A DNA stretch of 64,000 nucleotides. It comes from an uncultured Calditrichaceae bacterium. Lineage in GTDB: Bacteria > Calditrichota > Calditrichia > RBG-13-44-9. A program made the position numbers and the translations under genes. How positions within the stretch are numbered: position 1 is the first letter of the stretch; each line of letters begins with the position of its first letter. The notes beneath the pieces are model-generated. The model saw nothing but the letters and a program-made list of their open reading frames with translations, searched no databases and was not told the origin of the DNA. This document shows positions 2,381-38,305 of the stretch, piece by piece. Location: contig CAZBWV010000088.1 of assembly GCA_964495805.1 (NCBI GenBank), positions 28,886 to 92,885 on the forward strand. The letters are read 5' to 3'.

Positions 2381-2398
2381 TCCCTCTTTCCCAATTTT

Positions 2399-13447: not shown

Positions 13448-16400
13448 TTATACTTTTAGCACAAAATGCAAATCGTCGGTTCGGTATTTCACATTTCGAG
13501 AGGCCGAAAACGAATCGAACCACTTGAGCAGGAAGTTTCCGCCATAAGGCACCGTCTGAATACGGGCTTTTTTCAGAAGCTCCGGTTTCGGGATGTACCC
13601 ATTCCGGAACAGAGCAATTTCCTGGCGATATTCCGGAATCATCTGCTCAATTTCTGCGGTTACTTCCTCTCCGCGTTGCAATTTAAATATTCGCCCCAGA
13701 GATGCGCTCAAATCCACCAGAATTTGCCAGTTCTCCCGACCAATCCTGGAGGGAAGGGCGGCTCGAAATCGTTGTACCCGACCTTCTGCATTGGTGATGG
13801 TTCCGCTGTTTTCCGCAAACGGTGCCAGAGGGAATACAACATCCGCCTGTTTTGCCGTTTCGGTCATAAACATATCTGCAACAATCAGGAATTGGTGGTC
13901 TGATTTTTTCCATTTCATCTCAGCGGTTCCCAGCGGATCCTGTGCCCAGAAGATGGCTGCAGGAATTCGACCCAATCGCCACTCTTTCAGCAGTGCTGCT
14001 GTGGAACGCCCCGGGCGTCGGGGTAACTCTGCTTCCCACTCCTGATTAAACCGCTCGATAACCTGGGGATTGTCCACCCGCTGGTAGCCGGGTAAATATT
14101 CCGGTAACATCCCCATATCCAGCATCCCCTGGAAGTTTACCTCTTCGGGAACCGAAAGCAGAATTTCGCTTTTACCCAGCACATAAGCCAGGGTATTCAA
14201 CCAGTGCACGGTTTCCGCATCTCTGCGCGAACGATGACACACAAAGAGAGGACGTTCCGCTTTCAGCAGTTTTCGGAAGAATTTTTTCAACTCACCGGTA
14301 CTCAAGCCAAAATCGCTCGCTTTCTTTTTACGCGAGATTTCTCCAAGCTCGTTGCGCAGCATCTCCAGGGTGGAAGCGGGAATATGGCGGGCATATTTCT
14401 CCTGTTCGATTACAGAATCCACCAGAAATTTAAGGAATTCCACCCGATGTTCTTCAGAAACGGGTAAATTCTCGCCCCAGCGCGCCAGACGGGAATCCGG
14501 TTGATTCAGGATGTAGAGCGGTTGCCCGCGTCGGGCGGCTTTGTGCAGTTTAATGTAAAGCACGGGATGCGTTTCCATGGGGTCGAAATTGCCCACCAGC
14601 AGGAAGTCGCTGCTTTCAATCTTCTCGAATGTAGCATTGGACATGGAAGCGCGGAGCAACTCCTCGGGTAGTTCATTGAGATTGGCCAGTGAGCCCACAT
14701 TGTTGGTGCCCAGCACCACACGGGCAAACTTTTGTAACAGATAGTTCTCCTCATTGGTTACCGTCGGAGAACCAAAGACTGCCCATTCGGTATCTTCTTT
14801 TTGCAGATCCATAATACGTCGCGCAGTAAACAGGTACGCCTCGTCCCAGCTCACCGGTTGCAACTCACCATCTTTGCGGATATGGGGTTGAGTGAGCCGT
14901 TCATCGCTATTCACATAGCGGAACCCATACCGTCCCTTCACGCACAGATTGCCAAATTCGTTAACCACTGCTTCGCGGTCGGCAGAAGTTTTCATCCAGC
15001 GGTCGTCCAGAATTTCCGCCTGCAGGCTGCAGCCCACACTACAATACTGGCAGATGGTTTTCTCCTTTTCCAGAATCCACGGACCGGGTTTTACGGCATC
15101 CGGTTTGTCCACCAGAGCACCGGTGGGACAGGTTTCCACGCACTGTCCGCAGGAGATGCACTGGCTCTCTGCCAGCGGAACTTCCAGCGTCGGTTTGACC
15201 TTGGTGTCGAATCCACGCTTCACAAACCCGAACACACCCAATCCCATCACCTCGTCGCAGATGCGCACACAGCGGCCGCAAAGGATGCACTTATTCAATT
15301 CAATCTTAATGAAAGGATGACTGTCATCGGGTGGCAGGTCATGGAATTCTCCCTGAAATGCAGTCTGGTCCGCCTGATAATCGGTGGAATGTTTCTGTAA
15401 GTCGCACTCGTAGAATGCCTGGCATCCACACTCCAGGCAGCGCAGGGATTCCTGATACACCTGCTCTTCACTGAAGCCCAGTTCCACTTCTTCCCAGCTG
15501 TGCGCCCGCTCCCGGGCATCCCGGACGGGCATCTTCTGACGCGGAATTTTTGGAACATCAGCAAAATCTTCCGGTTGCGGCGGTCTCAGATTTTCCCGAC
15601 GACTGATGAACGGCTTCCTGGGATAGGCCAGTTCCTCTCCGGTAATGTATTTGTGAATGGCCTGGGCAGCTTTTCCTCCCTGAGCGATGGCTTCGATGGC
15701 AGTGGCTGGTCCCAGCACTACATCTCCCCCGGCAAACACACCGGGAATGTTGGTTTCCATGATTTCCGGTTTGACTTCCAGAGTACCCCAGCGGGTGGTT
15801 TTAATCTCCAGCAGCTTGCCATCCTTCCCGGCATACTCCAGGTCCGGCTTCTGCCCGATGGCGGCAATGACCCAATCCACCTCAATAACATAGTTGGAAC
15901 CCTCGATGGGAATGGGACGGCGACGTCCACTGGCATCGGGTGGTCCAAGCTCCATTTTCACACACTCAATGCCGGTTACCCGATTGTTTTCGTCGGTAAG
16001 AATTTTCACCGGTGCGGTCAGAAAGGTGAATTTGACTCCTTCTTCCCGGGCTTCTTCGATTTCAATTTTATTGGCAGGCATTTCTTTGATGGTGCGCCGG
16101 TAAACGATGTTGACCTCATCGGCTCCCAGGCGCAGCGCAGTCCGGGCGGCATCCATGGCTGTGTTTCCACCACCAATTACAGCTACTTTGCCAGAAAGCT
16201 TTTTCACCTTGCCCAGCTTTACCTCTTCCAGAAACTCGATTCCAGCCAGCACTCCTTCGGCATCTTCATTCTCCACACGCATACTGGTGCTGGCTTGCGC
16301 ACCCAATCCCAGAAAAATAGCTTCGTAACCGTCGTCAAATAGCGAATCGATGGTGAAATCCCGTCCCAGAGCTTTATTGCAATAGATTTCCACCCCCAGT

Positions 16401-17164
16401 TTTGTGATGCCTTCAATTTCTTTATCCAGGATTTTTTCCGGAAGGCGGTATTCGGGAATTCCCCAGCGCAGCATGCCACCGGGTTTGGGCTTGGCATCGA
16501 AAATGTGCACAGTGTGGCCTTCCTGACGCAGGTAATAGGCAGCAGAAAGTCCCGCCGGACCGGCGCCGATTATGGCAATCCGATGACCGGTATCCGGTTT
16601 TACCTCGGGGAAGTAACGGTCGGGACTCTCCAGATCGTAGTCCGCCAAAAAACGTTTAACGTGGTCGATGGCTTCCGCTTCATCCACCAGATTTCGCCGA
16701 CATGCCAGCTCGCAAGGTCGCGTACACACCCGACCGCATACCGTGGGGAGCGGATTGGTTTGTTTGATGAGCGCAATGGCTTCCTTGTATTTGCCCAGGG
16801 CGGCCAGCGCCAGATATCCCTGTACATCCACCCCGGCAGGACAGGTTAGTTTACACGGTCCCAGACAATCTGCATAATGGTTGCTCAGCATCAGCTCCAG
16901 CGCCATTTTGCGCGCTTCGCGAATCGCCTCGCTGTTGGTGGTAATCTTCATCCCGGGGTTTACTTTAGTGGCACAGGACGGTACAAACGTTCGGGCACCC
17001 TCCACCTGCACCACACATAGAAAACAGGAGGTAAACGGTTCCAGCTGATCATCGTGGCAAAGTGTGGGAATGTGAATTCCCTGTTCCCGACACACCTGCA
17101 AAATCGTCTGACCGCTTTCGGCAATCACCGTCTTCCCGTCTATAAATACCTGCACTTTGCTCAT
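13448..17164 (-). CDS. multidomain FeS flavoprotein: 2Fe-2S ferredoxin + GltD-like NAD(P)H oxidoreductase + NuoG-type FeS clusters + degenerate formate-dehydrogenase-like (MopB) domain
   Basis: N-terminal 2Fe-2S fold (CHDD...C..C). GltD motifs CLGPCKLTCP...NPLPTVCGRVCTRPCELAC, FAD/NAD folds IAIIGAGPAGLSAA and VAVIGGGNTAMDAA. Cluster motifs CLECGCQAFYEC, CILCGRCVRIC and CISCGQCVETCP. MopB N-terminal cluster CQYCSVGC...LCVKG. The catalytic Cys/Sec-His region is replaced by SLANLNELPEEL. Confidence 0.8.
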   Translation of the reverse strand: MSKVQVFIDGKTVIAESGQTILQVCREQGIHIPTLCHDDQLEPFTSCFLCVVQVEGARTFVPSCATKVNPGMKITTNSEAIREARKMALELMLSNHYADCLGPCKLTCPAGVDVQGYLALAALGKYKEAIALIKQTNPLPTVCGRVCTRPCELACRRNLVDEAEAIDHVKRFLADYDLESPDRYFPEVKPDTGHRIAIIGAGPAGLSAAYYLRQEGHTVHIFDAKPKPGGMLRWGIPEYRLPEKILDKEIEGITKLGVEIYCNKALGRDFTIDSLFDDGYEAIFLGLGAQASTSMRVENEDAEGVLAGIEFLEEVKLGKVKKLSGKVAVIGGGNTAMDAARTALRLGADEVNIVYRRTIKEMPANKIEIEEAREEGVKFTFLTAPVKILTDENNRVTGIECVKMELGPPDASGRRRPIPIEGSNYVIEVDWVIAAIGQKPDLEYAGKDGKLLEIKTTRWGTLEVKPEIMETNIPGVFAGGDVVLGPATAIEAIAQGGKAAQAIHKYITGEELAYPRKPFISRRENLRPPQPEDFADVPKIPRQKMPVRDARERAHSWEEVELGFSEEQVYQESLRCLECGCQAFYECDLQKHSTDYQADQTAFQGEFHDLPPDDSHPFIKIELNKCILCGRCVRICDEVMGLGVFGFVKRGFDTKVKPTLEVPLAESQCISCGQCVETCPTGALVDKPDAVKPGPWILEKEKTICQYCSVGCSLQAEILDDRWMKTSADREAVVNEFGNLCVKGRYGFRYVNSDERLTQPHIRKDGELQPVSWDEAYLFTARRIMDLQKEDTEWAVFGSPTVTNEENYLLQKFARVVLGTNNVGSLANLNELPEELLRASMSNATFEKIESSDFLLVGNFDPMETHPVLYIKLHKAARRGQPLYILNQPDSRLARWGENLPVSEEHRVEFLKFLVDSVIEQEKYARHIPASTLEMLRNELGEISRKKKASDFGLSTGELKKFFRKLLKAERPLFVCHRSRRDAETVHWLNTLAYVLGKSEILLSVPEEVNFQGMLDMGMLPEYLPGYQRVDNPQVIERFNQEWEAELPRRPGRSTAALLKEWRLGRIPAAIFWAQDPLGTAEMKWKKSDHQFLIVADMFMTETAKQADVVFPLAPFAENSGTITNAEGRVQRFRAALPSRIGRENWQILVDLSASLGRIFKLQRGEEVTAEIEQMIPEYRQEIALFRNGYIPKPELLKKARIQTVPYGGNFLLKWFDSFSASRNVKYRTDDLHFVLKV

Positions 17165-17550: not shown

Positions 17551-19371
17551 TCACGCCTCTTCCACTTCCTCCTTCACACCGGTTAAAATTTCGATGGCAT
17601 CGAACTTACACACATCGTAACAGGCGCCGCAGCGGGTACACATCTCTTCGTTGATGTAGTGCGGTTTCAGTTTTTCGCCGGTGATGGCGCCCACGGGACA
17701 GGCACGCAGGCACACCATGCAGCCAGTACAGGCGTCGGCAATAACCCGATAGGTAATCAGCGCCCGACAGCTTTTGGCGGGACATTCCTTGCGATAGATA
17801 TGGGCTTCGTACTCTTCCCGGAAGTATTTCAGCGTGGTTAGCACCGGATTGGGAGCCGTTTGCCCCAGACCGCACAGCGAACTTTTTTTGACGTTCTCCG
17901 CCAGTTTTTCCAGCTTATCCAGATCTTCCGGTTTGCCTTCGCCATTGGTGATGCGTTCCAGAATTTCCAGCATTCGTTTGGTACCCAGGCGGCAGAAGGT
18001 GCATTTACCGCACGATTCTTCCTGGGTAAAATTCAGGAAGAACTTCGCCACATCCACCATACAGGTGCGATCGTCCATGACCACCATACCACCGGAGCCC
18101 ATGATGGCGCCGGTTTTATTCAGCGATTCATAATCCACCGGTGTATCCAGCAGCTCTGCCGGGACGCACCCGCCGGAGGGACCACCCAACTGCACCGCTT
18201 TGAACTGTCGGTCGTCCTTGATGCCACCACCAATATCGAAAATGACTTCTTTCAGGGTCATTCCCATTGGTACTTCCACCATACCGCCGCGTTTAATTTT
18301 ACCGGCCAGAGCAAACACTTTGGTGCCCTTGCTTTTTTCCGTACCATAGCGGGCGAACTGGTCGGCGCCGTTCAGGATAATCCATGGCACATTGGCGTAG
18401 GTTTCCACATTGTTGATATTGGTGGGCTTCCCCCACAATCCTTTCACGGCAGGGAACGGCGGACGCAGGCGGGGCATACCACGCTTGCCTTCCACACTGG
18501 CAATCAGTGCTGTTTCCTCGCCGCACACAAACGCACCCGCTCCCAGCTTCAGCGAAATATCGAAAGAGAAATCGCTTCCCAGAATCTTCTTCCCCAGGAA
18601 TCCCTTTTCCCGCGCTTGCTGGATGGCAATTTCCAGCCGTTGCACCGCCAGAGGATACTCCGCGCGCACATAAATAATCCCTTCCTGCGCACCGATCGCA
18701 TATCCGGCAATCAGCATCCCTTCCAGCACGCTATGCGGGTCACCTTCCATGACGCTGCGATCCATAAAAGCGCCGGGGTCTCCTTCGTCTCCGTTGCAGA
18801 TGATATACTTGGTTTTTCCCGGTGACTGGCGGGCAAATTGCCATTTGATACCGGTGGGGAAACCGGCACCACCGCGTCCGCGCAAACCGGACTGCTTAAT
18901 CTCTTCAATGACCTCCTGCGGACTCATCCGGAACAGCACCTTGCGCAGCGCCTGGTAACCTTTTTGTGCCAGATAATCGTCGATATGCTCGGGATTGATT
19001 TTCCCGGCATTGCGCAGCACAATGCGAACCTGCCGCTCGAATAGCTCATTTTCCGCCTGCTCAATCCCCTCGCCTTTCACCACCCAATCTTCAATAATTT
19101 CCCTGTTCCGGAGGTGTTTTTCCAGAATCTGGGGCAGTTTCTTGGGAGTCACATCCCCGTAAATTACCGGGGGCATATCGGGCATCTGGATTTCGATGAG
19201 CGGTTCGCGGTAGCAGGCACCGATACAGCCGGTTTTTTCCAGTTCAACGGGTAAATTTTCCTGAGCAATCTTTTTCTCCAGCGCAGCGTACACATCGGCT
19301 GCTCCGGCAGCAATGCCACAACTGGCCATTCCCACCAATATCTTTATTTTTCCGTTTTTCGGGGAATTCAT
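17551..19371 (-). CDS. NuoF-like NADH-binding FMN/FeS flavoprotein (HydB/HndC/StnB-type) with a C-terminal 2x[4Fe-4S] ferredoxin domain
   Basis: GAGGAGFPTGIKW, CGKCTFCRLGT, and C-terminal motifs CTGCMVCLRACP and CTRCGACYDVC. Length is 606 aa. Confidence 0.85.
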   Translation of the reverse strand: MNSPKNGKIKILVGMASCGIAAGAADVYAALEKKIAQENLPVELEKTGCIGACYREPLIEIQMPDMPPVIYGDVTPKKLPQILEKHLRNREIIEDWVVKGEGIEQAENELFERQVRIVLRNAGKINPEHIDDYLAQKGYQALRKVLFRMSPQEVIEEIKQSGLRGRGGAGFPTGIKWQFARQSPGKTKYIICNGDEGDPGAFMDRSVMEGDPHSVLEGMLIAGYAIGAQEGIIYVRAEYPLAVQRLEIAIQQAREKGFLGKKILGSDFSFDISLKLGAGAFVCGEETALIASVEGKRGMPRLRPPFPAVKGLWGKPTNINNVETYANVPWIILNGADQFARYGTEKSKGTKVFALAGKIKRGGMVEVPMGMTLKEVIFDIGGGIKDDRQFKAVQLGGPSGGCVPAELLDTPVDYESLNKTGAIMGSGGMVVMDDRTCMVDVAKFFLNFTQEESCGKCTFCRLGTKRMLEILERITNGEGKPEDLDKLEKLAENVKKSSLCGLGQTAPNPVLTTLKYFREEYEAHIYRKECPAKSCRALITYRVIADACTGCMVCLRACPVGAITGEKLKPHYINEEMCTRCGACYDVCKFDAIEILTGVKEEVEEA

Positions 19372-19383
19372 CGGAATCGTCCT

Positions 19384-19872
19384 TTATTTTTGGTATTTCT
19401 TGAGAATTCGTTTGGTTTCCCGGTCGGTTAAACGGCCGTAAGTGGTGTCGTCTATCATCATCACCGGGGCCAGACTACAACACCCCAGGCAGGCCACCGA
19501 TTCCAGGGTAAACATGCCATCCGGTGTGGTATCCCCATCGGAGATGCCCAGAAATTCCTCGCACGCTTCGGTGATGCGTTCCGCACCGCTTACATGGCAG
19601 GCCGTTCCGTGACACACTTTGATGATATGCTTACCTACCGGTTTCAGACGAAATTGAGAATAAAATGTGGCAACCCCATAAATCTGACTCACATCGGTTC
19701 GGGTGGCCTCGGCTATGCGTACAATGGCTTCTTTAGGCAGATAACCATAAATTTTCTGCGTTTCCTGCAAAAGCTGAATAATCGTACCCGGTTTTTTGGC
19801 CAATTTTTTAAGAATACGATTCAGGGGTTTCAAATCGATGGATTCGGCGGTTTGTGCCAGACTTTCTGCCAT
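19384..19872 (-). CDS. NuoE-like thioredoxin-fold 2Fe-2S protein (HndA/StnA-type)
   Basis: CHGTACHVSG ... CLGCCSLAPV motifs of the 24-kDa subunit family. It starts 12 nt upstream of the nuoF-like gene. Confidence 0.85.
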   Translation of the reverse strand: MAESLAQTAESIDLKPLNRILKKLAKKPGTIIQLLQETQKIYGYLPKEAIVRIAEATRTDVSQIYGVATFYSQFRLKPVGKHIIKVCHGTACHVSGAERITEACEEFLGISDGDTTPDGMFTLESVACLGCCSLAPVMMIDDTTYGRLTDRETKRILKKYQK

Positions 19873-20295: not shown

Positions 20296-21207
20296 TTAAT
20301 ACAGCTTCCGCCGCTTAATCAGATACCGCAGCAGGGCTCGATCGAATGGTTCATCTATGAAAATTTGCTGAAAGTCGATGCGAAACTTCAGGCACTCCCT
20401 TTGAAGCAACCCGTAGAATGCTTCCACTGCCTGGCGATATCGCTGCTGTAAAAAATAGGGTTGCGTTTTTATCCGTTCTCCGGTTTCCATATCCACAAAC
20501 ACCGCATCATCGGTAAAATTGAAATAACGGTCGTTGGGGTCCAGGATGTTAAACACCAGGATTTCGTGCTTGTAGTGCCGGAAGTGCTTTAGTCCCTGCA
20601 AGATTCGCTCCGGATCTTCAAACAAAAAATCGGTAAGCAGGACGATCAACCCGCGCCGTTTAATTTTTTCCGCCAGTTCGTGCAGGGTATCACTTACCAC
20701 GGTGCGCCGCTGTACCGGCTGAAGTCGGGCAAGTTCCTGTAAAATAAAATGGAGATATGCCTGCGACGATTTGGGTGGTAAAAATTTTTCGATCTTATCG
20801 GAAAAGGTCACCAATCCTACCGCATCCCGCTGTTTGACGAACAGATAACTAAACGCAGCAGCCAGATAGGTGGCATACTGCAGTTTGGTCATCTTGCCGC
20901 TGCCGTAGCCCATGGAGCCAGACACATCCATTAACAGGTAAGCGCGTAAATTGGTTTCCTCTTCGTACTGCTTGATGTAGTAGCGATTGGTACGGCCATA
21001 CACCTTCCAGTCGATATCCCGGATGTTGTCGCCGGGATTGTAGGGGCGATGCTCACTGAATTCCACGCTGAAACCGTGATAGGGACTTTTGTGCAATCCT
21101 ACCAGAAACCCTTCCACAATAAAGCGGGCAATCAGCTCCAGATTTTTCAGACTGGCTACCGCTTCCGGCAAAATGGCGGCAGCCGCAGATTTTTTTTCTT
21201 CTGGCAT
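20296..21207 (-). CDS. DUF58-family protein (vWA-like, MoxR-associated family), orphan copy
   Basis: DUF58 core YHGFSVEFSEHRPYNPGDNIRDIDWKVYGRTNRYYIKQYEEE. There is no MoxR gene adjacent. Confidence 0.7.
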   Translation of the reverse strand: MPEEKKSAAAAILPEAVASLKNLELIARFIVEGFLVGLHKSPYHGFSVEFSEHRPYNPGDNIRDIDWKVYGRTNRYYIKQYEEETNLRAYLLMDVSGSMGYGSGKMTKLQYATYLAAAFSYLFVKQRDAVGLVTFSDKIEKFLPPKSSQAYLHFILQELARLQPVQRRTVVSDTLHELAEKIKRRGLIVLLTDFLFEDPERILQGLKHFRHYKHEILVFNILDPNDRYFNFTDDAVFVDMETGERIKTQPYFLQQRYRQAVEAFYGLLQRECLKFRIDFQQIFIDEPFDRALLRYLIKRRKLY

Positions 21208-21367: not shown

Positions 21368-22327
21368 ATGGCAGAGACGAAGCACTACAAGGTGATTATC
21401 ATCGGTTCCGGCCCGGCCGGTTTAACGGCAGCCATTTACACCGCACGCGCCAATTTAAATCCCCTGGTTGTGGAAGGAACCCAGCCGGGTGGTCAGCTCA
21501 CCATTACCACCGAAGTGGAAAACTTCCCCGGCTTCCCTGAAGGCATTCAGGGTCCGGAGCTGATGGATAAAATGCACGAACAGGCAGAGAAGTTCGGTAC
21601 GGAATTCTATTACGGTACAGTCACTAAAGCGGATTTAAGCAAACGACCATTTGAACTGGAGGTGGAAGAGGTCAATTTTACCTGCGACACCTTAATTATT
21701 GCCTCCGGTGCGACCGCCCGGTTGCTGGGACTGGAATCGGAAAAGCGTTTGATGGGACACGGCGTGTCCGCCTGTGCCACCTGCGATGGTTTCTTCTTTA
21801 CCGGTAAAGAAGTGGTCGTGGTGGGCGGTGGCGATTCCGCCATGGAAGAAGCAACCTTCCTGACCAAATTTGCCTCCAGAGTAACCATCATCCATCGACG
21901 CGACAAATTGCGTGCTTCCAAAATCATGCAACAACGCGCATTCGATAATCCCAAAATCGATTTTCTGTGGAACAAGGTGGTGATCGACATTCTGGGAGAT
22001 GAGGAAACCGGTGTGACCGGGGTGCGCCTGAAAGACACCATTACCGGCGAAGAGAGCGAATTCAAATGCGACGGAGTGTTCCTGGCTATCGGCCATGTAC
22101 CCAATACACAAATTTTCCGGGGACAACTGGAAATGGATGACAAGGGTTACCTGATAACCAAACCGAAAAGTATGGCTACCAGTGTACCGGGAGTGTTTGC
22201 TGCCGGGGACGTGCAGGACCCCATTTACCGCCAGGCGATTTCCGCCGCAGGAAGCGGCTGTATGGCTGCCCTGGATGCCCAGCATTATCTGGAAGAACAG
22301 GAATATCGGGAGAAAGAAGGAAAGTAA
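21368..22327 (+). CDS. trxB: thioredoxin-disulfide reductase
   Basis: FAD fold [14 protein letters not shown], redox-active [14 protein letters not shown] fold [12 protein letters not shown]. Confidence 0.9.
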
Positions 22328-22352
22328 CGTACAACTGGTTGACGACGTTCAC

Positions 22353-22386
22353 GGCGTATCGATCTCTCAACGATACGCCGTTTTTT
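22353..22386 (+). terminator. rho-independent terminator after trxB
   Basis: GGCGTATCGatctctcaaCGATACGCC followed by TTTTTT. Confidence 0.65.
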
Positions 22387-22481
22387 GATTACTCTCCACT
22401 CCATCGCACGGGGTTGAGCAAACAACCAATTCACAAGATTTGTTCGGACCGCTTACCGCCTACTTTTTTATCTTTATGATC

Positions 22482-22715
22482 TTAAGCATCTTTTTTCTTT
22501 AGCATTTCCAGAATCTCCCCATGTTCCGGGAAGCGGAAAGCTTGCTTTTTGGAGAAGATTAGACGTCCATCTGCCCGAACATCGAAAACTCCGCCCCGGG
22601 AGGCGATGAGTTCCGGCTTGATGCCGGTTGCCCGTTCAATTGCTTCTGCCAGCCTGGCAGCTTGCGGATAGTAGTTTCACTCCGTGCAATATTCAATACT
22701 GACCTTTTTTACCAT
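22482..22715 (-). CDS. SelW/Rdx-family selenoprotein with an in-frame UGA (Sec) in a CxxU motif; absent from the ORF track
   Basis: Minus-strand translation is MVKKVSIEYCTE-U-NYYPQAARLAEAIERATGIKPELIASRGGVFDVRADGRLIFSKKQAFRFPEHGEILEMLKKKDA. The TGA is at 22679..22677. It matches the Rdx consensus IEYC..U ... GG.FEV..DG.LI.SK...G.FP. Confidence 0.75.
22646..22660 (-). other. candidate bacterial SECIS hairpin inside the selenoprotein mRNA
   Basis: CUGCC-AGGCU-GGCAG hairpin beginning 18 nt 3' of the UGA, which is the spacing expected for a bacterial SECIS. It is not validated. Confidence 0.3.
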
Positions 22716-22783
22716 TTCACCACTCCCCTTTTTGAATCATCCCATTGATATCACATCATTTTCGAATTGTCGCCTGTAGCACG

Positions 22784-23716
22784 TTAAACAATGATATTCA
22801 CACCGGTATGATAGTGCAAATAATCCCGGAAAACAACTGTAAAATTGTGCAGAAGTCCGTGGCGACTATTGATGATGTACACGTGGTGGTTCAAATGGAA
22901 AATCTGGTCTTTCACCCGCTCAATGGGCATGGTGTGCAGCGATTCAATACCTTTAAGCCGAATCAGCTCCTCTTCGAACATCAGCACAATTTTGTCTTTT
23001 ACTCGCAGATGGGTATCGTCCAAAAACACAGCCAGATCGGGAAGCAGAGCCCTCACCCGCTGGAAAAAGGCAGCCACCTCCGGATTGTGAATTCCCTTTG
23101 GCGGGGCAGTTTTGGTTTCCACAAAAAGTAACTTCCCCTGCCAGAGGGCAAGCACATCGTAATCTCCACCCGCATCGCCACCCTGCAGGGAAACACTACT
23201 GATTGCCGACATCCCCAATTCACGCTGCAAAAGCAACGCCACATAATGCTCCAGAACATCGCCGATGCGGGGTGTGCCCTGCTGACGGAGCCGAACCCCC
23301 TGCTCCACTTTTTCCACCACACCAATTTCCGCAAGGGTGGTTAACATTTCCCGAATGCTCCCCTCCGAAGCATAATGGCATAACTCTTCCGTACGTTTCG
23401 GAGTGGTCGGTTCCTGCAACAAATCGTGCAGCAACAGCCGAAAAGAATATTTCTGCAGAAGTCGATAGAAAACTTGCCGGTGTTGCGAATCGGTCAGTCC
23501 AAACAACCGAAACAGTTGCTCCGGGGATTCGTATTTTACCGGAGTCAACCCGCGTGGCTGTAGCGCTTCCTTCCAGAATGTTGCCAGTTCCGGTTCACTC
23601 ATTTCATCTCCCCGATTTTTTGCCCACCATCCCGAAATCATCTGCCATCTCACCATCCGATCAATATCTTTTGAATGAATGGCAATCTGCGGGGTATGAT
23701 TCACCGTAGATTTCAA
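22784..23716 (-). CDS. hypothetical protein with a winged-helix region plus a PD-(D/E)xK nuclease-like motif
   Basis: GSIREMLTTLAEIGVVEKV looks like a wHTH. GDYDVLALWQGKLLFVETK has D ... E-x-K spacing typical of restriction-endonuclease-fold proteins. Confidence 0.4.
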   Translation of the reverse strand: MKSTVNHTPQIAIHSKDIDRMVRWQMISGWWAKNRGDEMSEPELATFWKEALQPRGLTPVKYESPEQLFRLFGLTDSQHRQVFYRLLQKYSFRLLLHDLLQEPTTPKRTEELCHYASEGSIREMLTTLAEIGVVEKVEQGVRLRQQGTPRIGDVLEHYVALLLQRELGMSAISSVSLQGGDAGGDYDVLALWQGKLLFVETKTAPPKGIHNPEVAAFFQRVRALLPDLAVFLDDTHLRVKDKIVLMFEEELIRLKGIESLHTMPIERVKDQIFHLNHHVYIINSRHGLLHNFTVVFRDYLHYHTGVNIIV

Positions 23717-33557: not shown

Positions 33558-35423
33558 TTAAAAATACTTTGCCATTTGCACCAGAATTTTTTCCGCTCGC
33601 CGGTAGAATTGTTCCATTTCTTCCCGGTTAGGTGTCCCCGGAGCAAAGCGGCGGAAGTCCGCTTCATCCAGGCATTTGAGAAATTCCCGGGTCAGTTCAT
33701 CGTCCACCTGTTTTTCGCGGAGCAGCTGAACCACCTGCTCCCTGAGCAACCCGGCAGCTGGCTGATTGGTTTTATCCGCCAGGTAACCAATCAGTGCCCG
33801 GGAAACTTCGCCATAAAAATCACTGGCAAGCTCAGGTTTGAGCAATCCGCGGGCTTTTTTCAGATGGGCACGTGCCTGCCGGTGCGCTTTGCGACTGCGT
33901 GCGTACCGCACATCCCGGCTCATCCGCTCCAGATGCATCCGGTAACTCCAGGCCATACCCAGCAGCATCAGAGAAAACAGGGGAATTCCCCAGAACCACC
34001 ACACCCGATATGGCATTTCGCCAATTTCGTAAAAAGCAGGTAGCCGATCCTTGATGAACCGAATATCCCGACCAAGCAATTTCACCGCTTCTTTTGCCAC
34101 ATATCCGTCGCCTGCCGGAGTTCCGGCAATGGTTTTACCCGGTAAAACGTGCACTACAAATTCCGGCACGGTTAAATCGTGGTACTGACGATCGTCGGGA
34201 TTAAAATAGCTCAAATGCATCTCATCAATTTTCAAATCGCCCGGTACCCGGGGAATGAGCACATATTCGAATTCCTTGTTGCTCACCACTACGGAGCCGC
34301 TTTTACTCACCGATTGGGTGATTTTCGGCTCGTACACTTCGAAATCCGGTGAATGTTTCAGCGGCAATTCATTCAGTAACTTCAGCAACCCCTTGCCAGA
34401 GAGTTTGACTTTGTAGGAAATCGCCTCGTTGGTTTTGCAGGTTTGCTTATCCAGGGAATAATGGATTTTAAAATCGCCCACCAGTCCGGTAAAATCGGCG
34501 GGTTTTCCTTCCTGAGGTAGTGGTAACACATTAAGCTGCAGGGCACCGGAGCTTACTTTTTTACGTACCACCTGCCCGAACGGATCGCTAAAGAACTGAT
34601 CGAAAATATCCATAGGATTGCGCCGCCGGGGCACTACCAACTCCAGCATCAGCTCCATAGGCGAAATGGTAATTTTGCCCGGTCGGGAGGGAAACAGGGC
34701 AATTTTGCGTACTTCCGCCACGTTGTACTGTTTTCCGTTCACCACTTCGGTGTGCACGCTTAACCGCTGCGGTTGGGGAAATTCCTCCACCCAGCAACCG
34801 ACCGCTTCGGGCAGTTTCAGCACTTTACTATCGTTAATATTCACCCGAAAGTAGATTTTGTAGCGCAGCAACACCTGCTGGTTAACGTAAACGGTTTTTT
34901 GCGATGGGATGACGCGCAGGAAGACCAGATCGCTCAAATTTCTGCTTTTGCTTCGGCGGGAGGTGCCTCCCGGAGCGGGAGCTGTGCTCCGTGGCCGGGC
35001 ACCGGATTTAACCACCTCCACGGTAACGGAGTTGGAACGAATGGTTTTCCCCTTGTATTTCGCCCGGGCAGGGGCAATGGTAAACCGCCCCACCGATTTG
35101 GGCATTAATATAAAGGAGTACGTCTTGCTGGCACTCATTTTAAAATTAATAATCTGGAAGGATGTGGAGACGTTGGGACCGGAAAGAATGTCGAACTGGC
35201 TTAAATCGGGGAATTCTACATCGGGTAGATTTTGCTGGGAACCGCTGATCTCCACCTCGTACACGAATTGCTCGTCTTCCGGTACAGGATTTTTATCCAC
35301 CCGGGCAATGAGCTGGATGTCGCCCGCTGAGGCACCCGGAGAAAACATGAATATCAGCAACAGGATTCCCCCAATCCAGGATGTGATTCCTACTCTGTTC
35401 ATATCACCAGTCCTTTTCCACAT
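33558..35423 (-). CDS. batD: BatD-like membrane protein
   Basis: 621 aa: N-terminal BatD-type secreted domain, a central TM segment, and a C-terminal helical domain. It follows batC. Confidence 0.65.
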   Translation of the reverse strand: MWKRTGDMNRVGITSWIGGILLLIFMFSPGASAGDIQLIARVDKNPVPEDEQFVYEVEISGSQQNLPDVEFPDLSQFDILSGPNVSTSFQIINFKMSASKTYSFILMPKSVGRFTIAPARAKYKGKTIRSNSVTVEVVKSGARPRSTAPAPGGTSRRSKSRNLSDLVFLRVIPSQKTVYVNQQVLLRYKIYFRVNINDSKVLKLPEAVGCWVEEFPQPQRLSVHTEVVNGKQYNVAEVRKIALFPSRPGKITISPMELMLELVVPRRRNPMDIFDQFFSDPFGQVVRKKVSSGALQLNVLPLPQEGKPADFTGLVGDFKIHYSLDKQTCKTNEAISYKVKLSGKGLLKLLNELPLKHSPDFEVYEPKITQSVSKSGSVVVSNKEFEYVLIPRVPGDLKIDEMHLSYFNPDDRQYHDLTVPEFVVHVLPGKTIAGTPAGDGYVAKEAVKLLGRDIRFIKDRLPAFYEIGEMPYRVWWFWGIPLFSLMLLGMAWSYRMHLERMSRDVRYARSRKAHRQARAHLKKARGLLKPELASDFYGEVSRALIGYLADKTNQPAAGLLREQVVQLLREKQVDDELTREFLKCLDEADFRRFAPGTPNREEMEQFYRRAEKILVQMAKYF

Positions 35424-36222
35424 GTCGTTTTCCTGCCGGTAATCGCATCCGGCGCAGTTTCTGGTTTTCTTTTTCCTTGCTACGCAGCGCCTGCAAAATG
35501 CGTTCGGCTTCCTCTTTGCTTAACGCTTTTTTCTTCCCATGCTGAGCTTGTTGCTGCTCCCCTTTTTTATTTTTCTGCTGCTGGTTGCCCTGCTGAGGTG
35601 TTTGCAAGCTATCCCGGCGTGTTTGATTCTGTTCTCCGCTTTGCGGATTGGGTTTATTTTTCTGCTGCTGTTTTTGCTGATCGTTCGGCTTTTGTCCGGA
35701 TTGTTGTTGCTGGTTCTGGCGGGAATTCTGCTGCGAATTGGACTGTTGTTGGGGCTGTTTTTGCGCCATTTCCTTCAGCCGGGCACGAACCAGCTCCAGA
35801 TTGTGTTTGGCGTCCAGGTCATCCGGATTTATTTCCAGCGCTTTTTTATAGCTCTGAATCGCTTCCTGAAATTTGTTCATGAAATAGTAAGTATTCCCCA
35901 TGTTGTAATATATTTGCTCGCGCAGTTGCGGGTCTTCCGTCGCCAGGGCTTTCTGGTATTCCTTCAGCGCATCCTGGTACCGCTTTTTCTTGTACAGGGC
36001 TTCGGCCAGATTATAGTGCCCGATCGGATCGGTGGGATCATCCAGCTGGGCATCCTGAAAGAACTTGAGCGCTTCGTCCCACTGCTCTTTCTGAAAAGCT
36101 TGAACCCCTCGATTGGTTTTTCCCCGATCCACATCCGCACGAAGGGTGCCCACTCCCGCCATCAAAAGCAGGCATACGGCCAAACTGTTACGAAGCCATC
36201 GATACATCACTGCTCCCTGCAA
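35404..36222 (-). CDS. batC: BatC-like TPR protein with a Q/N/K-rich low-complexity tail
   Basis: TPR units (HYNLAEALYKKKRYQDALKEYQKAL...) followed by about 90 aa of QQQ/NQQ/KNK repeats. Confidence 0.6.
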   Translation of the reverse strand: MQGAVMYRWLRNSLAVCLLLMAGVGTLRADVDRGKTNRGVQAFQKEQWDEALKFFQDAQLDDPTDPIGHYNLAEALYKKKRYQDALKEYQKALATEDPQLREQIYYNMGNTYYFMNKFQEAIQSYKKALEINPDDLDAKHNLELVRARLKEMAQKQPQQQSNSQQNSRQNQQQQSGQKPNDQQKQQQKNKPNPQSGEQNQTRRDSLQTPQQGNQQQKNKKGEQQQAQHGKKKALSKEEAERILQALRSKEKENQKLRRMRLPAGKRHVEKDW

Positions 36223-37243
36223 TTTTCATTTGACGGATTCGTTTTCGTTCGCTCAGTACGGATTCCAGCACCAGCACCAGCAGTGCCAGCAACAGAAAAA
36301 TCTGAAACCGGTCCTCGAACTGACTGAACTTCCGGGAGGCAAGCTCTTTTTTCTCCATGGCAGAAATTTCGCCGTAAATCTTTTCCAGCTCGCTTTCGCC
36401 AGTGCTACTAATATAGTATTTTCCTCCCGTTTCGAAAGCAATCTTTTCCAGTGTTAACACATCCAGTTTGGTCGTCACAATCTGCCCCTGACGATCCTTT
36501 TTGTAACCAATCCGATTGCCATAGCGGTCGTACTCCGGAATGGGAGCACCCTGCGGCGAACCGATTCCGATAGTATAGATGACAATTCCTTCCTGAGCAG
36601 CTTCCTTGGCGGCTTTCACCGGATCGCCTTCATGGTCCTCGCCATCGGTAATTAAAATGAGCACTTTGTGCTTGTATTCCTTGGTGACGAAGGATTTCAT
36701 CGCTGTGCGGATAGCGCTGGCTATGGCGGTGCCAGGCTGTGGAATGACATCGGTATCCACTGAGCTCAGAAACAGCTTGGCGGCGGAGTAATCCAGCGTC
36801 AGGGGGCACTGTACAAAAGCGATGCCAGCAAAACAGATGAGTCCAATGCGGTCGCCGTTCAGGTGATCGATAAACGTGGCAATTTCATGTTTGGCTTTCT
36901 CCAATCGGTTGGGTGGAACATCTTCTGCCAGCATGCTTTTGGATACATCCAGCGCCACAAAAATATCCACCCCTTTGCGTTTGACCTGCACCAGCCTGGT
37001 ACCAATTTGCGGATCGGCCAGCGCCAGAATCAGCAACGAAACAGCCAACACCACCAGCACACTTTTCCACACCTGCTTTTTACGGCTTACTGTACCCGTC
37101 AGCCTTGCCACCAATTCTTCGTCTCCAATCCGCTTCAGAAGGCGACGCTTTTCCCGGAAGCTCCACCAGAAAAACAGGATGAGCGCTGGCACCAGCCAGT
37201 ACAGATGAAAAAAATATGGATTGGCGAAACGCAACATAGTCAA
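36188..37243 (-). CDS. batB: BatB-like vWA-domain membrane protein
   Basis: N-terminal TM helices and a vWA domain with MIDAS (DVSKSM ... ITDGEDHEGD). Confidence 0.75.
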   Translation of the reverse strand: MTMLRFANPYFFHLYWLVPALILFFWWSFREKRRLLKRIGDEELVARLTGTVSRKKQVWKSVLVVLAVSLLILALADPQIGTRLVQVKRKGVDIFVALDVSKSMLAEDVPPNRLEKAKHEIATFIDHLNGDRIGLICFAGIAFVQCPLTLDYSAAKLFLSSVDTDVIPQPGTAIASAIRTAMKSFVTKEYKHKVLILITDGEDHEGDPVKAAKEAAQEGIVIYTIGIGSPQGAPIPEYDRYGNRIGYKKDRQGQIVTTKLDVLTLEKIAFETGGKYYISSTGESELEKIYGEISAMEKKELASRKFSQFEDRFQIFLLLALLVLVLESVLSERKRIRQMKIAGSSDVSMAS

Positions 37244-37309
37244 TCAACAAGTTTGAACTAAAAATTCTGAACTCATATAAAATCAGGCTCTCAATGAACC
37301 GGAAATTGC

Positions 37310-38305
37310 TCAGGGTAATTTGCGCAAATAGGTATGCGCCAGAGCAACTTCCAGCAACAGCAGCAGGAATCCGATGCCGGCATAGTTTACAAACAGTTCC
37401 CGATATCTGGTAAACTCTTTCACCTCGATTTTGGTCTTCTCCATCTGATTAATCTGCTTGTAAATTTCGCGCAGACTTTCCGTATCGGTGGCACGGAAAT
37501 ATTTCCCACCGGTTTGAGCTGCAATTCGTCGCAAAAGTTCCTCATCAATTTGCACGGGCATGGGCACATAGCGACGTCCGAAGATCGGACTATCGACCGG
37601 ATAAAGAGCTGTTCCCCGCTTTCCGGCACCGATGGTATAAATGCGGATGTTGAATGCCTGAGCAATCTGCGCAGCGGTCATGGGATCAATTTCACCGGCG
37701 TTGTTGCGCCCGTCTGTCAGTAAAATAATCACCTTACTTTTGGCTTTACTGCTTTTCAGGCGTTCCACCGCAGTGGCAATACCGTTTCCGATAGCTGTTC
37801 CGTCCCATTCCTGCGGCGCCACCTGCACTTTGTCCAGTAACTCAATCAGTACGCCGTAATCCAGCGTTAACGGACATTGAGTAAACGCCTCGCCCGCAAA
37901 AATCACCAGTCCAATGCGGTCGTTCGTGCGGCTTTCGATAAATTCTCTGGCGACAATTTTAGCGGCTTCCAGCCGGTCTTTCGGCTTAAAATCCACCGCA
38001 CGCATACTGGTGCTCACATCCAGCACCAGCATGATGTCAATTCCCTCGGTAATAATTTTCTGCTTACGAACACCGGACTGAGGCCGCGCCAATCCCAGAA
38101 TAATCAGGGTCAGAATCATCAGCCGCAGCACAAACAGATAGCGGCGCAAGCGCTGTTTCAGGCTCACCGGCACATTTCGGGCGAATTTCAATGTGGAAAA
38201 TTTGAAATTGCCCGAAAGCTTTTGCCCGTAACGCCAGTGGTACCAGCCTAACAGCGGCACAATGACCAGTAAAATCAAATATTCCGGGTTCGCAAAGCGA
38301 AACAA
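37310..38305 (-). CDS. batA: BatA-like vWA-domain membrane protein
   Basis: TM helices and a vWA MIDAS (LDVSTSM ... LLTDGRNNAGE). Confidence 0.75.
   Translation of the reverse strand: MFRFANPEYLILLVIVPLLGWYHWRYGQKLSGNFKFSTLKFARNVPVSLKQRLRRYLFVLRLMILTLIILGLARPQSGVRKQKIITEGIDIMLVLDVSTSMRAVDFKPKDRLEAAKIVAREFIESRTNDRIGLVIFAGEAFTQCPLTLDYGVLIELLDKVQVAPQEWDGTAIGNGIATAVERLKSSKAKSKVIILLTDGRNNAGEIDPMTAAQIAQAFNIRIYTIGAGKRGTALYPVDSPIFGRRYVPMPVQIDEELLRRIAAQTGGKYFRATDTESLREIYKQINQMEKTKIEVKEFTRYRELFVNYAGIGFLLLLLEVALAHTYLRKLP

What the first reader, a model, noticed from the sequence alone, without database searches (positions are those of the whole stretch)
22482..22715. Unannotated SelW/Rdx-family selenoprotein with in-frame UGA and a candidate SECIS hairpin
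The ORF track has nothing in the 22482-22715 interval. The minus strand encodes MVKKVSIEYCTE-UGA-NYYPQAARLAEAIERATGIKPELIASRGGVFDVRADGRLIFSKKQAFRFPEHGEILEMLKKKDA. This matches the Rdx/SelW consensus: IEYC..U, GG.F.V..DG.LIFSK and FP. The UGA sits in the CxxU redox position. A CUGCC-AGGCU-GGCAG hairpin starts 18 nt downstream, which is compatible with a bacterial SECIS. It implies the organism has selABCD and uses selenium. The gene lies next to trxB on the opposite strand.
Basis: partly seen in the sequence, partly recalled or inferred. Interest (0 to 1): 0.6.

Follow-up and report, generated by a model that had tools for sequence, protein, structure and literature searches.

The report
Uncalled SelW-like selenoprotein gene with SECIS
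This is a real but ordinary 77-residue SelW-like (Rdx-family) selenoprotein gene that gene callers skipped because its selenocysteine is encoded by an in-frame UGA, which is followed by a conserved, covarying recoding hairpin.

Summary
Window 22482-22715 (-) reads RBS, ATG, 12 codons, UGA, 64 codons, TAA. With U written as C it passes three curated profiles: Pfam Rdx (65.8 bits, cutoff 22.6), TIGR02174 (54.8/34.2) and NCBIfam NF041051 (92.2/88).

All 30 orthologous loci I retrieved keep TGA at codon 13, and two natural homologues have TGC (Cys) there. Those loci come from Calditrichota, KSB1 and Thermodesulfobacteriota MAGs and from metagenomes.

Purifying selection is the same before and after the UGA (pN/pS 0.20 and 0.24).

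The hairpin fits the published bacterial SECIS model. Across orthologues it is 96% paired with compensatory changes at two pairs, and synonymous sites in its stem are frozen or covary.

The organism uses UGA as a normal stop, so an alternative genetic code is excluded.

selA, selB, selC and selD were not found, but only about 72 kb of the genome was visible, so that absence is uninformative.

Bacterial SelW-like proteins are a well-known selenoprotein family with curated models. This is a new member of a known kind and of low interest.

One side lead: in Calditrichia/KSB1-type genomes the gene is consistently paired with an uncharacterised upstream winged-helix plus PD-(D/E)xK nuclease-like protein.

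The parts
22723..22728 (-). Shine-Dalgarno GGGGAG, 7 nt upstream of the ATG
   Evidence: Read directly. Orthologues carry AGGAG or GGAG at the same distance.
22482..22715 (-). SelW-like (Rdx family) selenoprotein CDS: 77 residues including Sec13, then a TAA stop
   Evidence: Translation. Pfam PF10262 65.8 bits, TIGR02174 54.8 bits, NF041051 92.2 bits. PDB relatives 2fa8, 3dex and 2p0g.
22677..22688 (-). C10-T-E-U13 redox motif (CxxU)
   Evidence: In the model of the Cys homologue, the CxxC lies between strand b1 and helix a1.
22677..22679 (-). In-frame UGA read as selenocysteine (codon 13)
   Evidence: TGA in all 30 orthologous loci. TGC in the Cys homologues P0008 and P0009. The organism otherwise uses TGA as a stop.
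22646..22660 (-). bSECIS hairpin: CUGCC(A)-GGC-(U)GGCAG, with apical loop AGGCU at 22651-22655. It overlaps codons Ala19-Ala20-Arg21-Leu22-Ala23-Glu24.
   Evidence: dG -8.4. Covariation. Frozen or covarying synonymous sites. pS 0.27 against about 0.7 elsewhere.
22784..23602 (-). Upstream same-strand partner gene: 272 aa, uncharacterised, winged helix plus PD-(D/E)xK nuclease-like fold. It lies 68 nt from the selW-like ATG. Whether it belongs to the same functional unit is inferred only.
21368..22327 (+). trxB (thioredoxin-disulfide reductase), the convergent neighbour
   Evidence: TIGR01292, 423.5 bits against a cutoff of 343.45. Pfam Pyr_redox_2. Adjacent only in close relatives L004, L005, L012 and L021.
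22351..22387 (+). Intrinsic terminator between the convergent genes: 11-bp stem followed by UUUUUU on the + strand. It serves trxB. It may also stop the selW-like transcript, although there is no U-tract on that side.
   Evidence: dG -17.9, z -3.59, 1 of 200 shuffles fold as well.

Best explanation
A small monocistronic or bicistronic gene encodes a 77-residue thioredoxin-fold protein of the Rdx (SelW/SelT/SelH) family, with a C10-x-x-U13 redox centre.

**Translation (Sec insertion inferred).** The ribosome starts at AUG 22715. At UGA codon 13 it is recoded. A hairpin 16 nt downstream, with apical loop A-G-G-C-U 21-22 nt from the UGA, acts as the bacterial SECIS. It recruits SelB-GTP-Sec-tRNA(Sec), selenocysteine is inserted, and translation continues for 64 more codons to UAA.

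**Protein function (inferred from the family).** The mature protein presumably cycles between a selenol/thiol form and a selenenylsulfide form, acting as a thiol-dependent oxidoreductase or antioxidant.

**Shown here:** the sequence anatomy, family membership, strict UGA conservation with Cys in homologues, protein-level selection on both sides of the UGA, and RNA-level selection on the hairpin.

**Inferred:** actual Sec insertion, redox chemistry, and the reductant. The thioredoxin/TrxB system or a low-molecular-weight thiol are both possible.
For: **Family**
- PF10262: 65.8 bits against a cutoff of 22.6. A further 40.1 bits come from the part after the UGA alone.
- NF041051: 92.2 against 88. 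TIGR02174: 54.8 against 34.2.
- PDB hits 2fa8, 3dex, 2ljk, 2obk, 2ojl, 2oka and 2p0g over residues 4-71.
- The model of the 60%-identical Cys homologue has b1-CxxC-a1-b2-b3-b4-a2 topology. It matches SelW-related crystal structures at TM about 0.8, and mouse SelW 2npb.

**Recoding**
- TGA at codon 13 in 30 of 30 loci from at least three phylum-level lineages.
- Cys (TGC) at that position in P0008 and P0009.
- pN/pS is 0.195 for codons 2-12 and 0.238 for codons 14-72, with pS about 0.7. The 36 nt before the ATG are only 40% identical.
- Standard genetic code: 8 of 28 supported ORFs end in TGA, and there are 0 in-frame TGA in 10,746 codons.

**SECIS**
- It fits the constraints quoted in PMC13188914. 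Those are a 3-9 nt loop, a 4-16 bp stem, the N1-G-[G|U]-N-N2 loop pattern, 16-37 nt spacing and MFE <= -7.5. Here the stem is 5-6 bp, the loop is AGGCU, the spacing is 21-22 nt and dG is -8.4.
- 96.2% of cells are paired. Pair 21-33 appears as UA16/CG4/AU3/GC1/UG1 and pair 24-30 as CG24/UA1.
- The covariation score is 0.258 against 0.121 for shuffles (0 of 500 reach it). Register-shifted controls pair at 51% or less.
- Ala20 is GCC and the third base of Leu22 is G in 26 of 26 sequences. Every other conserved degenerate codon carries 1.0-1.8 bits of entropy.
- pS in the hairpin codons is 0.27 against 0.71-0.73 in the flanks.
- The loop Arg uses AGG, which is 3% of Arg codons in this genome. In the listed sequences the loop Ser is always AGU.
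Against: - No selA, selB, selD or tRNA-Sec was found in the window, in about 8 kb beyond its right end, or in any fetched locus. That is about 72 kb of a multi-megabase genome, so the absence is uninformative.
- The hairpin is short, and in this single sequence it is not thermodynamically exceptional (z -0.11).
- The bare 6-bp helix without flanking bases evaluates to -7.1 kcal/mol, just short of the -7.5 threshold.
- The Ala-Ala-x-Leu-Ala peptide itself favours a hairpin. 15-17% of synonymous recodings keep the stem.
- One Cys-form homologue (L035) still folds a 5-bp hairpin there, though its loop is AGCCU.
- There is no experimental evidence of selenium incorporation.
Confidence: 0.93

Rival explanations
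1. It is a pseudogene: a former CxxC Rdx gene whose second Cys codon (TGC or TGT) mutated to TGA, so that no full-length protein is made.
For: TGY to TGA is a single-base change. Cys-form homologues exist. Two retrieved copies, L011 and L032, do look degraded downstream.
Against: - TGA is present in all 30 loci across distant lineages.
- Both halves of the gene are under purifying selection, with pN/pS about 0.2 and saturated synonymous divergence.
- The RBS and ATG are conserved at a fixed distance.
- The hairpin shows compensatory substitutions.
Confidence: 0.02
2. The organism reads UGA as a sense codon (Trp in code 4, Gly in code 25), so this is an ordinary ORF. Several database entries imply this by carrying W or G at the position.
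For: P0001-P0005, P0007 and P0010 carry W at the position, and P0006 carries G.
Against: - In the window, 8 of 28 profile- or call-supported ORFs terminate at TGA.
- None of 10,746 in-frame codons is TGA, against 129 TGG.
- The W and G entries come mostly from short metagenomic contigs (356-1073 bp, except P0007 and P0010). The position aligns with the catalytic Cys, not with Trp or Gly, in solved family members. These are therefore probably gene-calling artefacts.
Confidence: 0.01
3. The gene is real and the UGA is read through, but the hairpin is only a by-product of the conserved Ala-Ala-x-Leu-Ala peptide. On this reading, recoding would rely on another element or on SECIS-independent suppression.
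For: - 15-17% of synonymous recodings keep the stem.
- The folding z-score is -0.11.
- One Cys-form still has a hairpin at the same place.
Against: - Synonymous sites in the stem are frozen (entropy 0) or covary, while all other degenerate sites in the gene drift.
- pS drops 2.6-fold in the hairpin codons.
- There are compensatory double changes at two pairs, and the broken stem occurs only in a degraded copy.
- Loop codon choice always gives G followed by G or U, using a rare Arg codon here.
Confidence: 0.04

Closest known systems
Bacterial SelW-like selenoproteins (Zhang & Gladyshev; NCBIfam NF041051 'SelT/SelW/SelH family (seleno)protein', TIGR02174 CXXU_selWTH)
   Same: - Small single-domain protein of about 75 residues, with CxxU at the N-terminus, the GG-x-F-[DE]-V motif, and a bSECIS directly after the UGA.
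[quoted passage not shown]
- It occurs in Deltaproteobacteria, Clostridia and other groups (PMC1794560).
- The window protein scores above the NF041051 equivalog cutoff.
   Different: - Nothing structural or mechanistic differs.
- The host lineage differs: a Calditrichota-like MAG. A full-text search found no paper linking Calditrichaeota with selenocysteine.
- The conserved upstream partner gene has not, as far as I could find, been described.
Solved bacterial CxxC Rdx proteins (2fa8 Atu0228, 3dex SAV_2001, 2p0g, 2obk, 2oka, 2ojl)
   Same: Same fold, and the same position of the redox motif between b1 and a1.
   Different: They are Cys forms of about 100 residues with 18-30% identity. They have no UGA or SECIS, and their functions are also unknown.
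Mammalian selenoprotein W (2npb) and MIEN1/C17orf37 (2ljk)
   Same: Rdx family, CxxU (SelW) or CxxC (MIEN1), and a thioredoxin-like fold.
   Different: The eukaryotic SECIS lies in the 3' UTR and has a different structure. The eukaryotic partners, such as 14-3-3 and glutathione, are known to me from memory and were not tested here.
E. coli fdhF-type bacterial SECIS
   Same: It lies inside the coding region just after the UGA, with a small apical loop carrying an essential G followed by U or G (PMC13188914).
   Different: The stem here is much shorter (5-6 bp), there is no evident bulged U, and there is no sequence similarity. SelB binding was not tested.

Membership tests
Rdx / SelW-SelT-SelH family (PF10262, TIGR02174, NF041051) | Scores above the curated profile cutoffs | tested here: met
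   PF10262 65.8 against 22.6. TIGR02174 54.8 against 34.2. NF041051 (equivalog) 92.2 against 88. U was written as C for the search.
Rdx / SelW-SelT-SelH family (PF10262, TIGR02174, NF041051) | CxxU or CxxC motif at the end of strand b1, before helix a1 | tested here: met
   C10-T-E-U13 follows VSIEY. It aligns with CTQC of 2fa8 and 3dex. In the model of homologue P0008, the CxxC at residues 8-11 lies between E3-8 and H14-28.
Rdx / SelW-SelT-SelH family (PF10262, TIGR02174, NF041051) | Thioredoxin-like b1-a1-b2-b3-b4-a2 fold | tested here: met
The AF2 model of the 60%-identical natural Cys homologue has pLDDT 89.4. Its Foldseek top hits are 2fa8, 3dex, 2p0g, 2obk and 2ojl at TM about 0.8, then mouse SelW 2npb, then thioredoxins.
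Rdx / SelW-SelT-SelH family (PF10262, TIGR02174, NF041051) | Conserved G-x-F-E-[IV]-type motif, as stated in PMC10650576 | tested here: met
   G41-G42-V-F44-D-V46. G42, V46 and other residues are invariant in A1, and F44 is invariant in A2.
Rdx / SelW-SelT-SelH family (PF10262, TIGR02174, NF041051) | Thiol/selenol oxidoreductase activity | not testable with these tools
   This needs biochemistry. The review states that even for the family the exact functions remain unknown (PMC10650576).
Bacterial selenoprotein gene (UGA-Sec with bSECIS) | In-frame UGA aligned with Cys in homologues, and conserved among orthologues | tested here: met
   TGA in 30 of 30 loci. TGC in P0008 and P0009.
Bacterial selenoprotein gene (UGA-Sec with bSECIS) | The coding sequence is under selection on both sides of the UGA | tested here: met
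   pN/pS 0.195 upstream and 0.238 downstream.
Bacterial selenoprotein gene (UGA-Sec with bSECIS) | Hairpin meeting the bSECIS model: 3-9 nt loop, 4-16 bp stem, G in the first two loop positions, 16-37 nt from the UGA, MFE <= -7.5 | tested here: met
   - Loop AGGCU, matching N1-G-[G|U]-N-N2.
- Stem of 5-6 bp.
- Spacing 21-22 nt.
- dG -8.4 with flanking bases.
- The bare helix gives -7.1, so the energy criterion is met only narrowly.
- Model constraints are quoted from PMC13188914.
- bSECISearch itself was not available.
Bacterial selenoprotein gene (UGA-Sec with bSECIS) | The RNA structure is supported by covariation | tested here: met
   Two pairs carry compensatory changes (9 cells). Covariation is 0.258 against 0.121, with 0 of 500 shuffles reaching it. 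Register-shifted controls pair at 51% or less. Synonymous-site entropy and pS are reduced in the stem.
Bacterial selenoprotein gene (UGA-Sec with bSECIS) | The genome encodes selA, selB, selD and tRNA-Sec (selC) | not testable with these tools
   None found in the 64-kb window, in about 8 kb beyond its right end, or in any fetched locus. The rest of MAG GCA_054029175.1 could not be read.
Bacterial selenoprotein gene (UGA-Sec with bSECIS) | Selenium is actually incorporated | not testable with these tools
   Needs 75Se labelling or mass spectrometry.

The most novel reading that the evidence does not exclude
In Calditrichia/KSB1-type bacteria the SelW-like selenoprotein may form a functional two-gene module with the uncharacterised protein encoded directly upstream. 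That protein has a winged helix plus a Can2/Card1-like PD-(D/E)xK nuclease domain, has no CARF domain and has no Pfam family.

The pair stays together while the surrounding genes change. The two genes overlap by 17 nt in L038, where the partner is only 47% identical. The selenoprotein could therefore redox-control, or be controlled by, a DNA-binding or nuclease-like protein. That would give a first functional handle on bacterial SelW-like proteins, whose function is unknown.
Probability: 0.2. Interest if true: 0.45.

Novelty: new member of a known kind. Interest (0 to 1): 0.17.

Why it matters
The main value is for annotation.
- A real gene is missing from the gene calls of this MAG.
- Its public homologues are largely mis-recorded. 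Some carry W or G at the Sec position because the gene was called under the wrong genetic code. Others are truncated to start after the UGA.
- The gene also gives indirect evidence that this Calditrichota-like lineage decodes selenocysteine. I found no paper stating that.

It does not change what is understood about selenoproteins. SelW-like proteins are among the commonest bacterial selenoproteins, and NCBI already has a curated model that this protein passes.

The one open thread is the conserved pairing with an unknown nuclease-fold protein. It could hint at what bacterial SelW-like proteins do.

Tried and rejected
- **Single-sequence significance of the hairpin.** Neither the folding z-score nor synonymous recoding of the window peptide makes the hairpin significant on its own. 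I therefore relied on comparative evidence.
- **Sec machinery.** Searches came up empty each time.
  - ARAGORN and Rfam on the window.
  - Pfam or NCBIfam on every ORF whose size is compatible with SelA, SelB or SelD.
  - Extension beyond the right end of the window.
  - The left-end look-up, which failed because the exact protein is not on record.
  - tRNA scan of 38 fetched loci.
- **Other selenoprotein genes in the window.** A UGA read-through ORF scan found no other candidate with any redox-motif or family signature.
- **trxB as a conserved functional partner.** Rejected as general. It is adjacent only in the closest relatives, and the genes are convergent.
- **Upstream partner as a universal partner.** Rejected. 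Distant family members (L039-L041) lack a selW-like neighbour. Thermodesulfobacteriota selW-like genes sit instead next to an enolase-superfamily gene and a Zn-ADH gene.
- **Structure prediction of the window protein itself.** I used a natural Cys homologue instead.
- **Permissive Rfam scan of the locus.** Only chance-level hits.
- **First genome scan with the 15-sequence alignment.** It failed for lack of a conserved stretch. I repeated it with 7 closer sequences.
- **Literature on Sec in Calditrichota or Caldithrix.** Nothing relevant.

Full report
**1. What is in the sequence**

The order of features is:
- a GGGGAG ribosome-binding site at 22728-22723;
- a 7-nt spacer;
- ATG at 22715;
- twelve codons (MVKKVSIEYCTE);
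- TGA at 22679-22677;
- sixty-four further codons;
- TAA at 22484-22482.

Mechanical ORF listing finds only 40- and 45-aa ORFs in other frames in this interval. The window matches MAG GCA_054029175.1. The public gene calls on that contig leave a gap precisely here, between trxB and the next gene (L001 4816-5273). The only correction is that the hairpin stem begins at the 17th nucleotide after the UGA, not the 18th.

**2. Family membership**

With the UGA written as Cys, the 77-residue product passes three curated profiles:

| Profile | Score (bits) | Cutoff (bits) |
|---|---|---|
| Pfam Rdx PF10262 | 65.8 | 22.6 |
| TIGR02174 CXXU_selWTH | 54.8 | 34.2 |
| NCBIfam equivalog NF041051, 'SelT/SelW/SelH family (seleno)protein' | 92.2 | 88 |

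- The 64 residues after the UGA alone already score 40.1 bits.
- Sequence search of the PDB hits residues 4-71. The matches are the bacterial 'selenoprotein W-related' structural-genomics entries 2fa8, 3dex, 2obk, 2ojl, 2oka and 2p0g, and human MIEN1 2ljk. The query's CTEC aligns with their CTQC.
- The structure tool would not accept my edited sequence. I therefore modelled the natural Cys homologue P0008, which is 60% identical. Its pLDDT is 89.4, and its topology is b1, CxxC loop, a1, b2, b3, b4, a2.
- That model's best PDB matches are the same SelW-related structures at TM about 0.8, then mouse SelW 2npb, then thioredoxins.
- The family's G-x-F-E-[IV] motif (PMC10650576) is present as GGVFDV.

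**3. Is the UGA decoded?**

Fourteen database homologues were found, all carrying PF10262. At the UGA column:
- seven carry W and one carries G, which is what gene callers produce when they pick code 4 or code 25 on short contigs;
- four are truncated to start after that position;
- two (P0008, P0009) have a true Cys.

I then fetched DNA: 8 loci from species-representative genomes, 21 from metagenomes and 1 more through the upstream gene (L038). The genome loci come from MAGs labelled Calditrichia/Calditrichota, KSB1, 'Deltaproteobacteria'/Thermodesulfobacteriota/Syntrophaceae, and one unclassified bacterium.

- All 30 loci have TGA at codon 13, behind a conserved RBS-ATG-MVK.[IV]SIEYC.[ED].
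- The two Cys forms have TGC.
- Among 26 distinct orthologous coding sequences, Nei-Gojobori pN/pS is 0.195 for codons 2-12 and 0.238 for codons 14-72. Synonymous divergence is near saturation, at pS 0.72 and 0.66.
- The 36 nt upstream of the ATG are only 40% identical, compared with 78% for codons 1-12.

Both halves of the gene are therefore translated as one protein, which excludes a pseudogene.

An alternative genetic code is also excluded. Eight of 28 supported ORFs in the window stop at TGA, and none of 10,746 in-frame codons is TGA, compared with 129 TGG.

**4. The SECIS**

RNAfold gives CUGCCA-GGC-UGGCAG (equivalently CUGCC-AGGCU-GGCAG) at 22660-22646.

In this sequence alone the hairpin is unremarkable:
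- the 60-nt folding z-score is -0.11;
- 15-17% of synonymous recodings of the same peptide still allow the 5-bp stem.

It does fit the published bacterial SECIS model: a 3-9 nt loop, a 4-16 bp stem, the loop pattern N1-G-[G|U]-N-N2, 16-37 nt from the UGA and MFE <= -7.5 (PMC13188914). Here the loop is A-G-G-C-U, the stem is 5-6 bp, the spacing is 21-22 nt and dG is -8.4 with flanking bases. The bare helix gives -7.1, so the energy criterion is met only narrowly.

The decisive evidence is comparative.
- **Pairing across 26 distinct sequences.** The six pairs are 96.2% paired. Pair 21-33 joins the third positions of Ala19 and Ala23 and occurs as U-A (16), C-G (4), A-U (3), G-C (1) and U-G (1). 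Pair 24-30 is C-G (24), with one U-A double change in L038.
- **Controls for that pairing.** The covariation score is 0.258 against 0.121 in shuffles, and 0 of 500 shuffles reach it. Register-shifted controls pair at 51% or less.
- **Independent prediction.** RNAalifold predicts the same helix.
- **Synonymous sites.** Ala20 is GCC and the third base of Leu22 is G in 26 of 26 sequences, so both have zero entropy. Every other conserved degenerate codon in the gene has 1.0-1.8 bits.
- **Synonymous divergence.** pS falls to 0.27 in the hairpin codons, from 0.71-0.73 in the flanks.
- **Loop codon choice.** The loop always reads G followed by G or U. In the listed sequences Ser is always AGU, Gly is GGU or GGG, and Arg is AGG. 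AGG is only 3% of Arg codons in this genome.
- **The one unpaired Leu UUA.** The only copy with UUA and no compensating change is L032, and it also has a disrupted reading frame.

The Cys-form control is small and mixed. L033 keeps only a 4-bp stem (dG -4.0). L035 keeps a 5-bp hairpin but with loop AGCCU. That could be a remnant of the kind described for Sec-to-Cys conversions (PMC1794560).

**5. Sec machinery**

Not found. There is no tRNA and no Rfam hit in the window. There is no SelA-, SelB- or SelD-like ORF among those scanned. Nothing relevant lies in the roughly 8 kb beyond the right end, and there is no tRNA-Sec in any fetched locus. This covers about 72 kb of the genome, so it says nothing either way. 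The rest of the MAG could not be read with these tools. A UGA read-through scan found no second selenoprotein candidate in the window.

**6. Gene context**

- **trxB** (21368-22327, +) scores 423.5 bits on TIGR01292 against a cutoff of 343. It converges on the selW-like gene across 154 nt. That gap holds a strong terminator at 22351-22387, with an 11-bp stem followed by U6 and z -3.6. trxB is adjacent only in the closest relatives, L004, L005, L012 and L021.
- **The Thermodesulfobacteriota-type loci** instead have an enolase-superfamily (MR_MLE) gene about 40 nt downstream on the same strand, plus a Zn-dependent dehydrogenase gene.
- **The most stable neighbour in the window's lineage** is the gene directly upstream on the same strand (22784-23602, 272 aa). 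Homologues sit 26-90 nt upstream of the selW-like gene in L004, L005, L006, L011 and L012. In L038 they overlap it by 17 nt, even though the other neighbours differ.
- **What that upstream protein is.**
  - It has no Pfam or NCBIfam match.
  - It has more than 140 homologues, all 'hypothetical' where any name is given.
  - It has invariant GGDYD...E-x-K residues.
  - Its AF2 model is confident, with pLDDT 92.4.
- **Distant members of that family** (L039-L041) have no selW-like neighbour, and two of them follow a radical-SAM gene. The pairing is therefore lineage-specific, and its meaning is unknown.

**7. Mechanism**

Shown:
- the gene anatomy and family membership;
- the conserved UGA, with Cys in homologues;
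- selection on both sides of the UGA;
- RNA-level selection on a hairpin that fits the bSECIS model.

Inferred from the established bacterial Sec pathway and from the family:
- SelB-GTP-Sec-tRNA(Sec) binds the hairpin and inserts Sec at codon 13.
- The C10-x-x-U13 centre at the start of helix a1 cycles between a reduced form and a selenenylsulfide form, so the protein acts as a thiol-dependent oxidoreductase.

The reductant and substrate are unknown. The review I read says the exact functions of the Rdx family remain unknown.

**8. Comparison with what is known, and novelty**

- Bacterial SelW-like proteins were described in 2005. [quoted passage not shown]
- They were catalogued in Deltaproteobacteria, Clostridia and Actinobacteria (PMC1794560).
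- NCBI has an equivalog model that this protein passes.

The finding is therefore a correct identification of a new member of a known kind. The modest additions are:
- indirect evidence of Sec decoding in a Calditrichota-like lineage, for which no paper in the library links the two terms;
- mis-translated or truncated homologues in public databases;
- the conserved pairing with an uncharacterised nuclease-fold protein.

**9. Verdict**

My confidence that this is a translated Sec-containing Rdx protein with a functional bSECIS is about 0.93. Interest is low, at 0.17.

Noticed in passing
[not shown]
   Followed up: partly
proteins P0001-P0007, P0010-P0014: Public protein entries for this selenoprotein family are systematically wrong at the Sec codon. 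Seven have W and one has G, as if the genes were called under code 4 or code 25. Four are truncated to start after the UGA. The matching DNA loci I fetched all have TGA there.
   Followed up: partly
L011 851-940 and L032 493-712: Two copies look degraded. L011 hits a stop 13 codons after the Sec codon. L032 loses the reading frame near the C-terminus, and it is the only copy with Leu UUA that breaks the SECIS stem without a compensating change. These may be pseudogenes or assembly errors.
   Followed up: no
L035 1505-1762 (Cys-form P0009): This Cys (TGC) homologue still folds a 5-bp hairpin at the SECIS position, but its loop is AGCCU. That breaks the G-[G|U] loop pattern. It may be a fossil SECIS left by a Sec-to-Cys conversion.
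   Followed up: no
window 13448-17164 (-), with 17551-19371 and 19384-19872 (-): A 1238-aa fusion protein. It combines a 2Fe-2S domain, a GltD-like NAD(P)H flavoprotein module, 4Fe-4S clusters, and a NuoG/formate-dehydrogenase-like molybdopterin domain that lacks a detectable C-terminal Molydop_binding domain. It is encoded downstream of NuoF-like and NuoE-like genes. The arrangement looks like an unusual soluble NAD(P)H-linked oxidoreductase complex. The ORF has no in-frame UGA.
   Followed up: partly
L007-L010, L013, L014, L019, L024, L026 (e.g. L008 3592-4785 and 1285-2322): In Thermodesulfobacteriota-type genomes the selW-like gene is followed, about 40 nt downstream on the same strand, by a conserved 397-aa enolase-superfamily (MR_MLE) gene. 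A Zn-dependent alcohol-dehydrogenase-like gene lies nearby. This is a different conserved neighbourhood from the window's.
   Followed up: partly
window 1766-3649 (-): An AAA_21/AAA_15 ATPase (416 aa; the Pfam description reads 'putative AbiEii toxin') is followed 18 nt downstream by a 204-aa ORF with no Pfam match. The layout resembles a two-gene defence-type module.
   Followed up: no
window 20296-21207, 33558-38305, 43200-44303, 46307-47296 (-): The window holds many aerotolerance-operon-type genes (DUF58, two BatA/VWA proteins, two BatD-domain proteins and a MoxR AAA_3 ATPase). They are spread over about 27 kb rather than forming one compact operon.
   Followed up: no
window 22791-22820 (-): A sigma-70-like promoter match (TTTGCA-18-TATCAT, 9 of 12) lies inside the 3' end of the upstream gene, about 75 nt before the selW-like ATG. 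The selenoprotein gene may therefore have its own promoter as well as possible read-through from upstream. This is a consensus match only.
   Followed up: no
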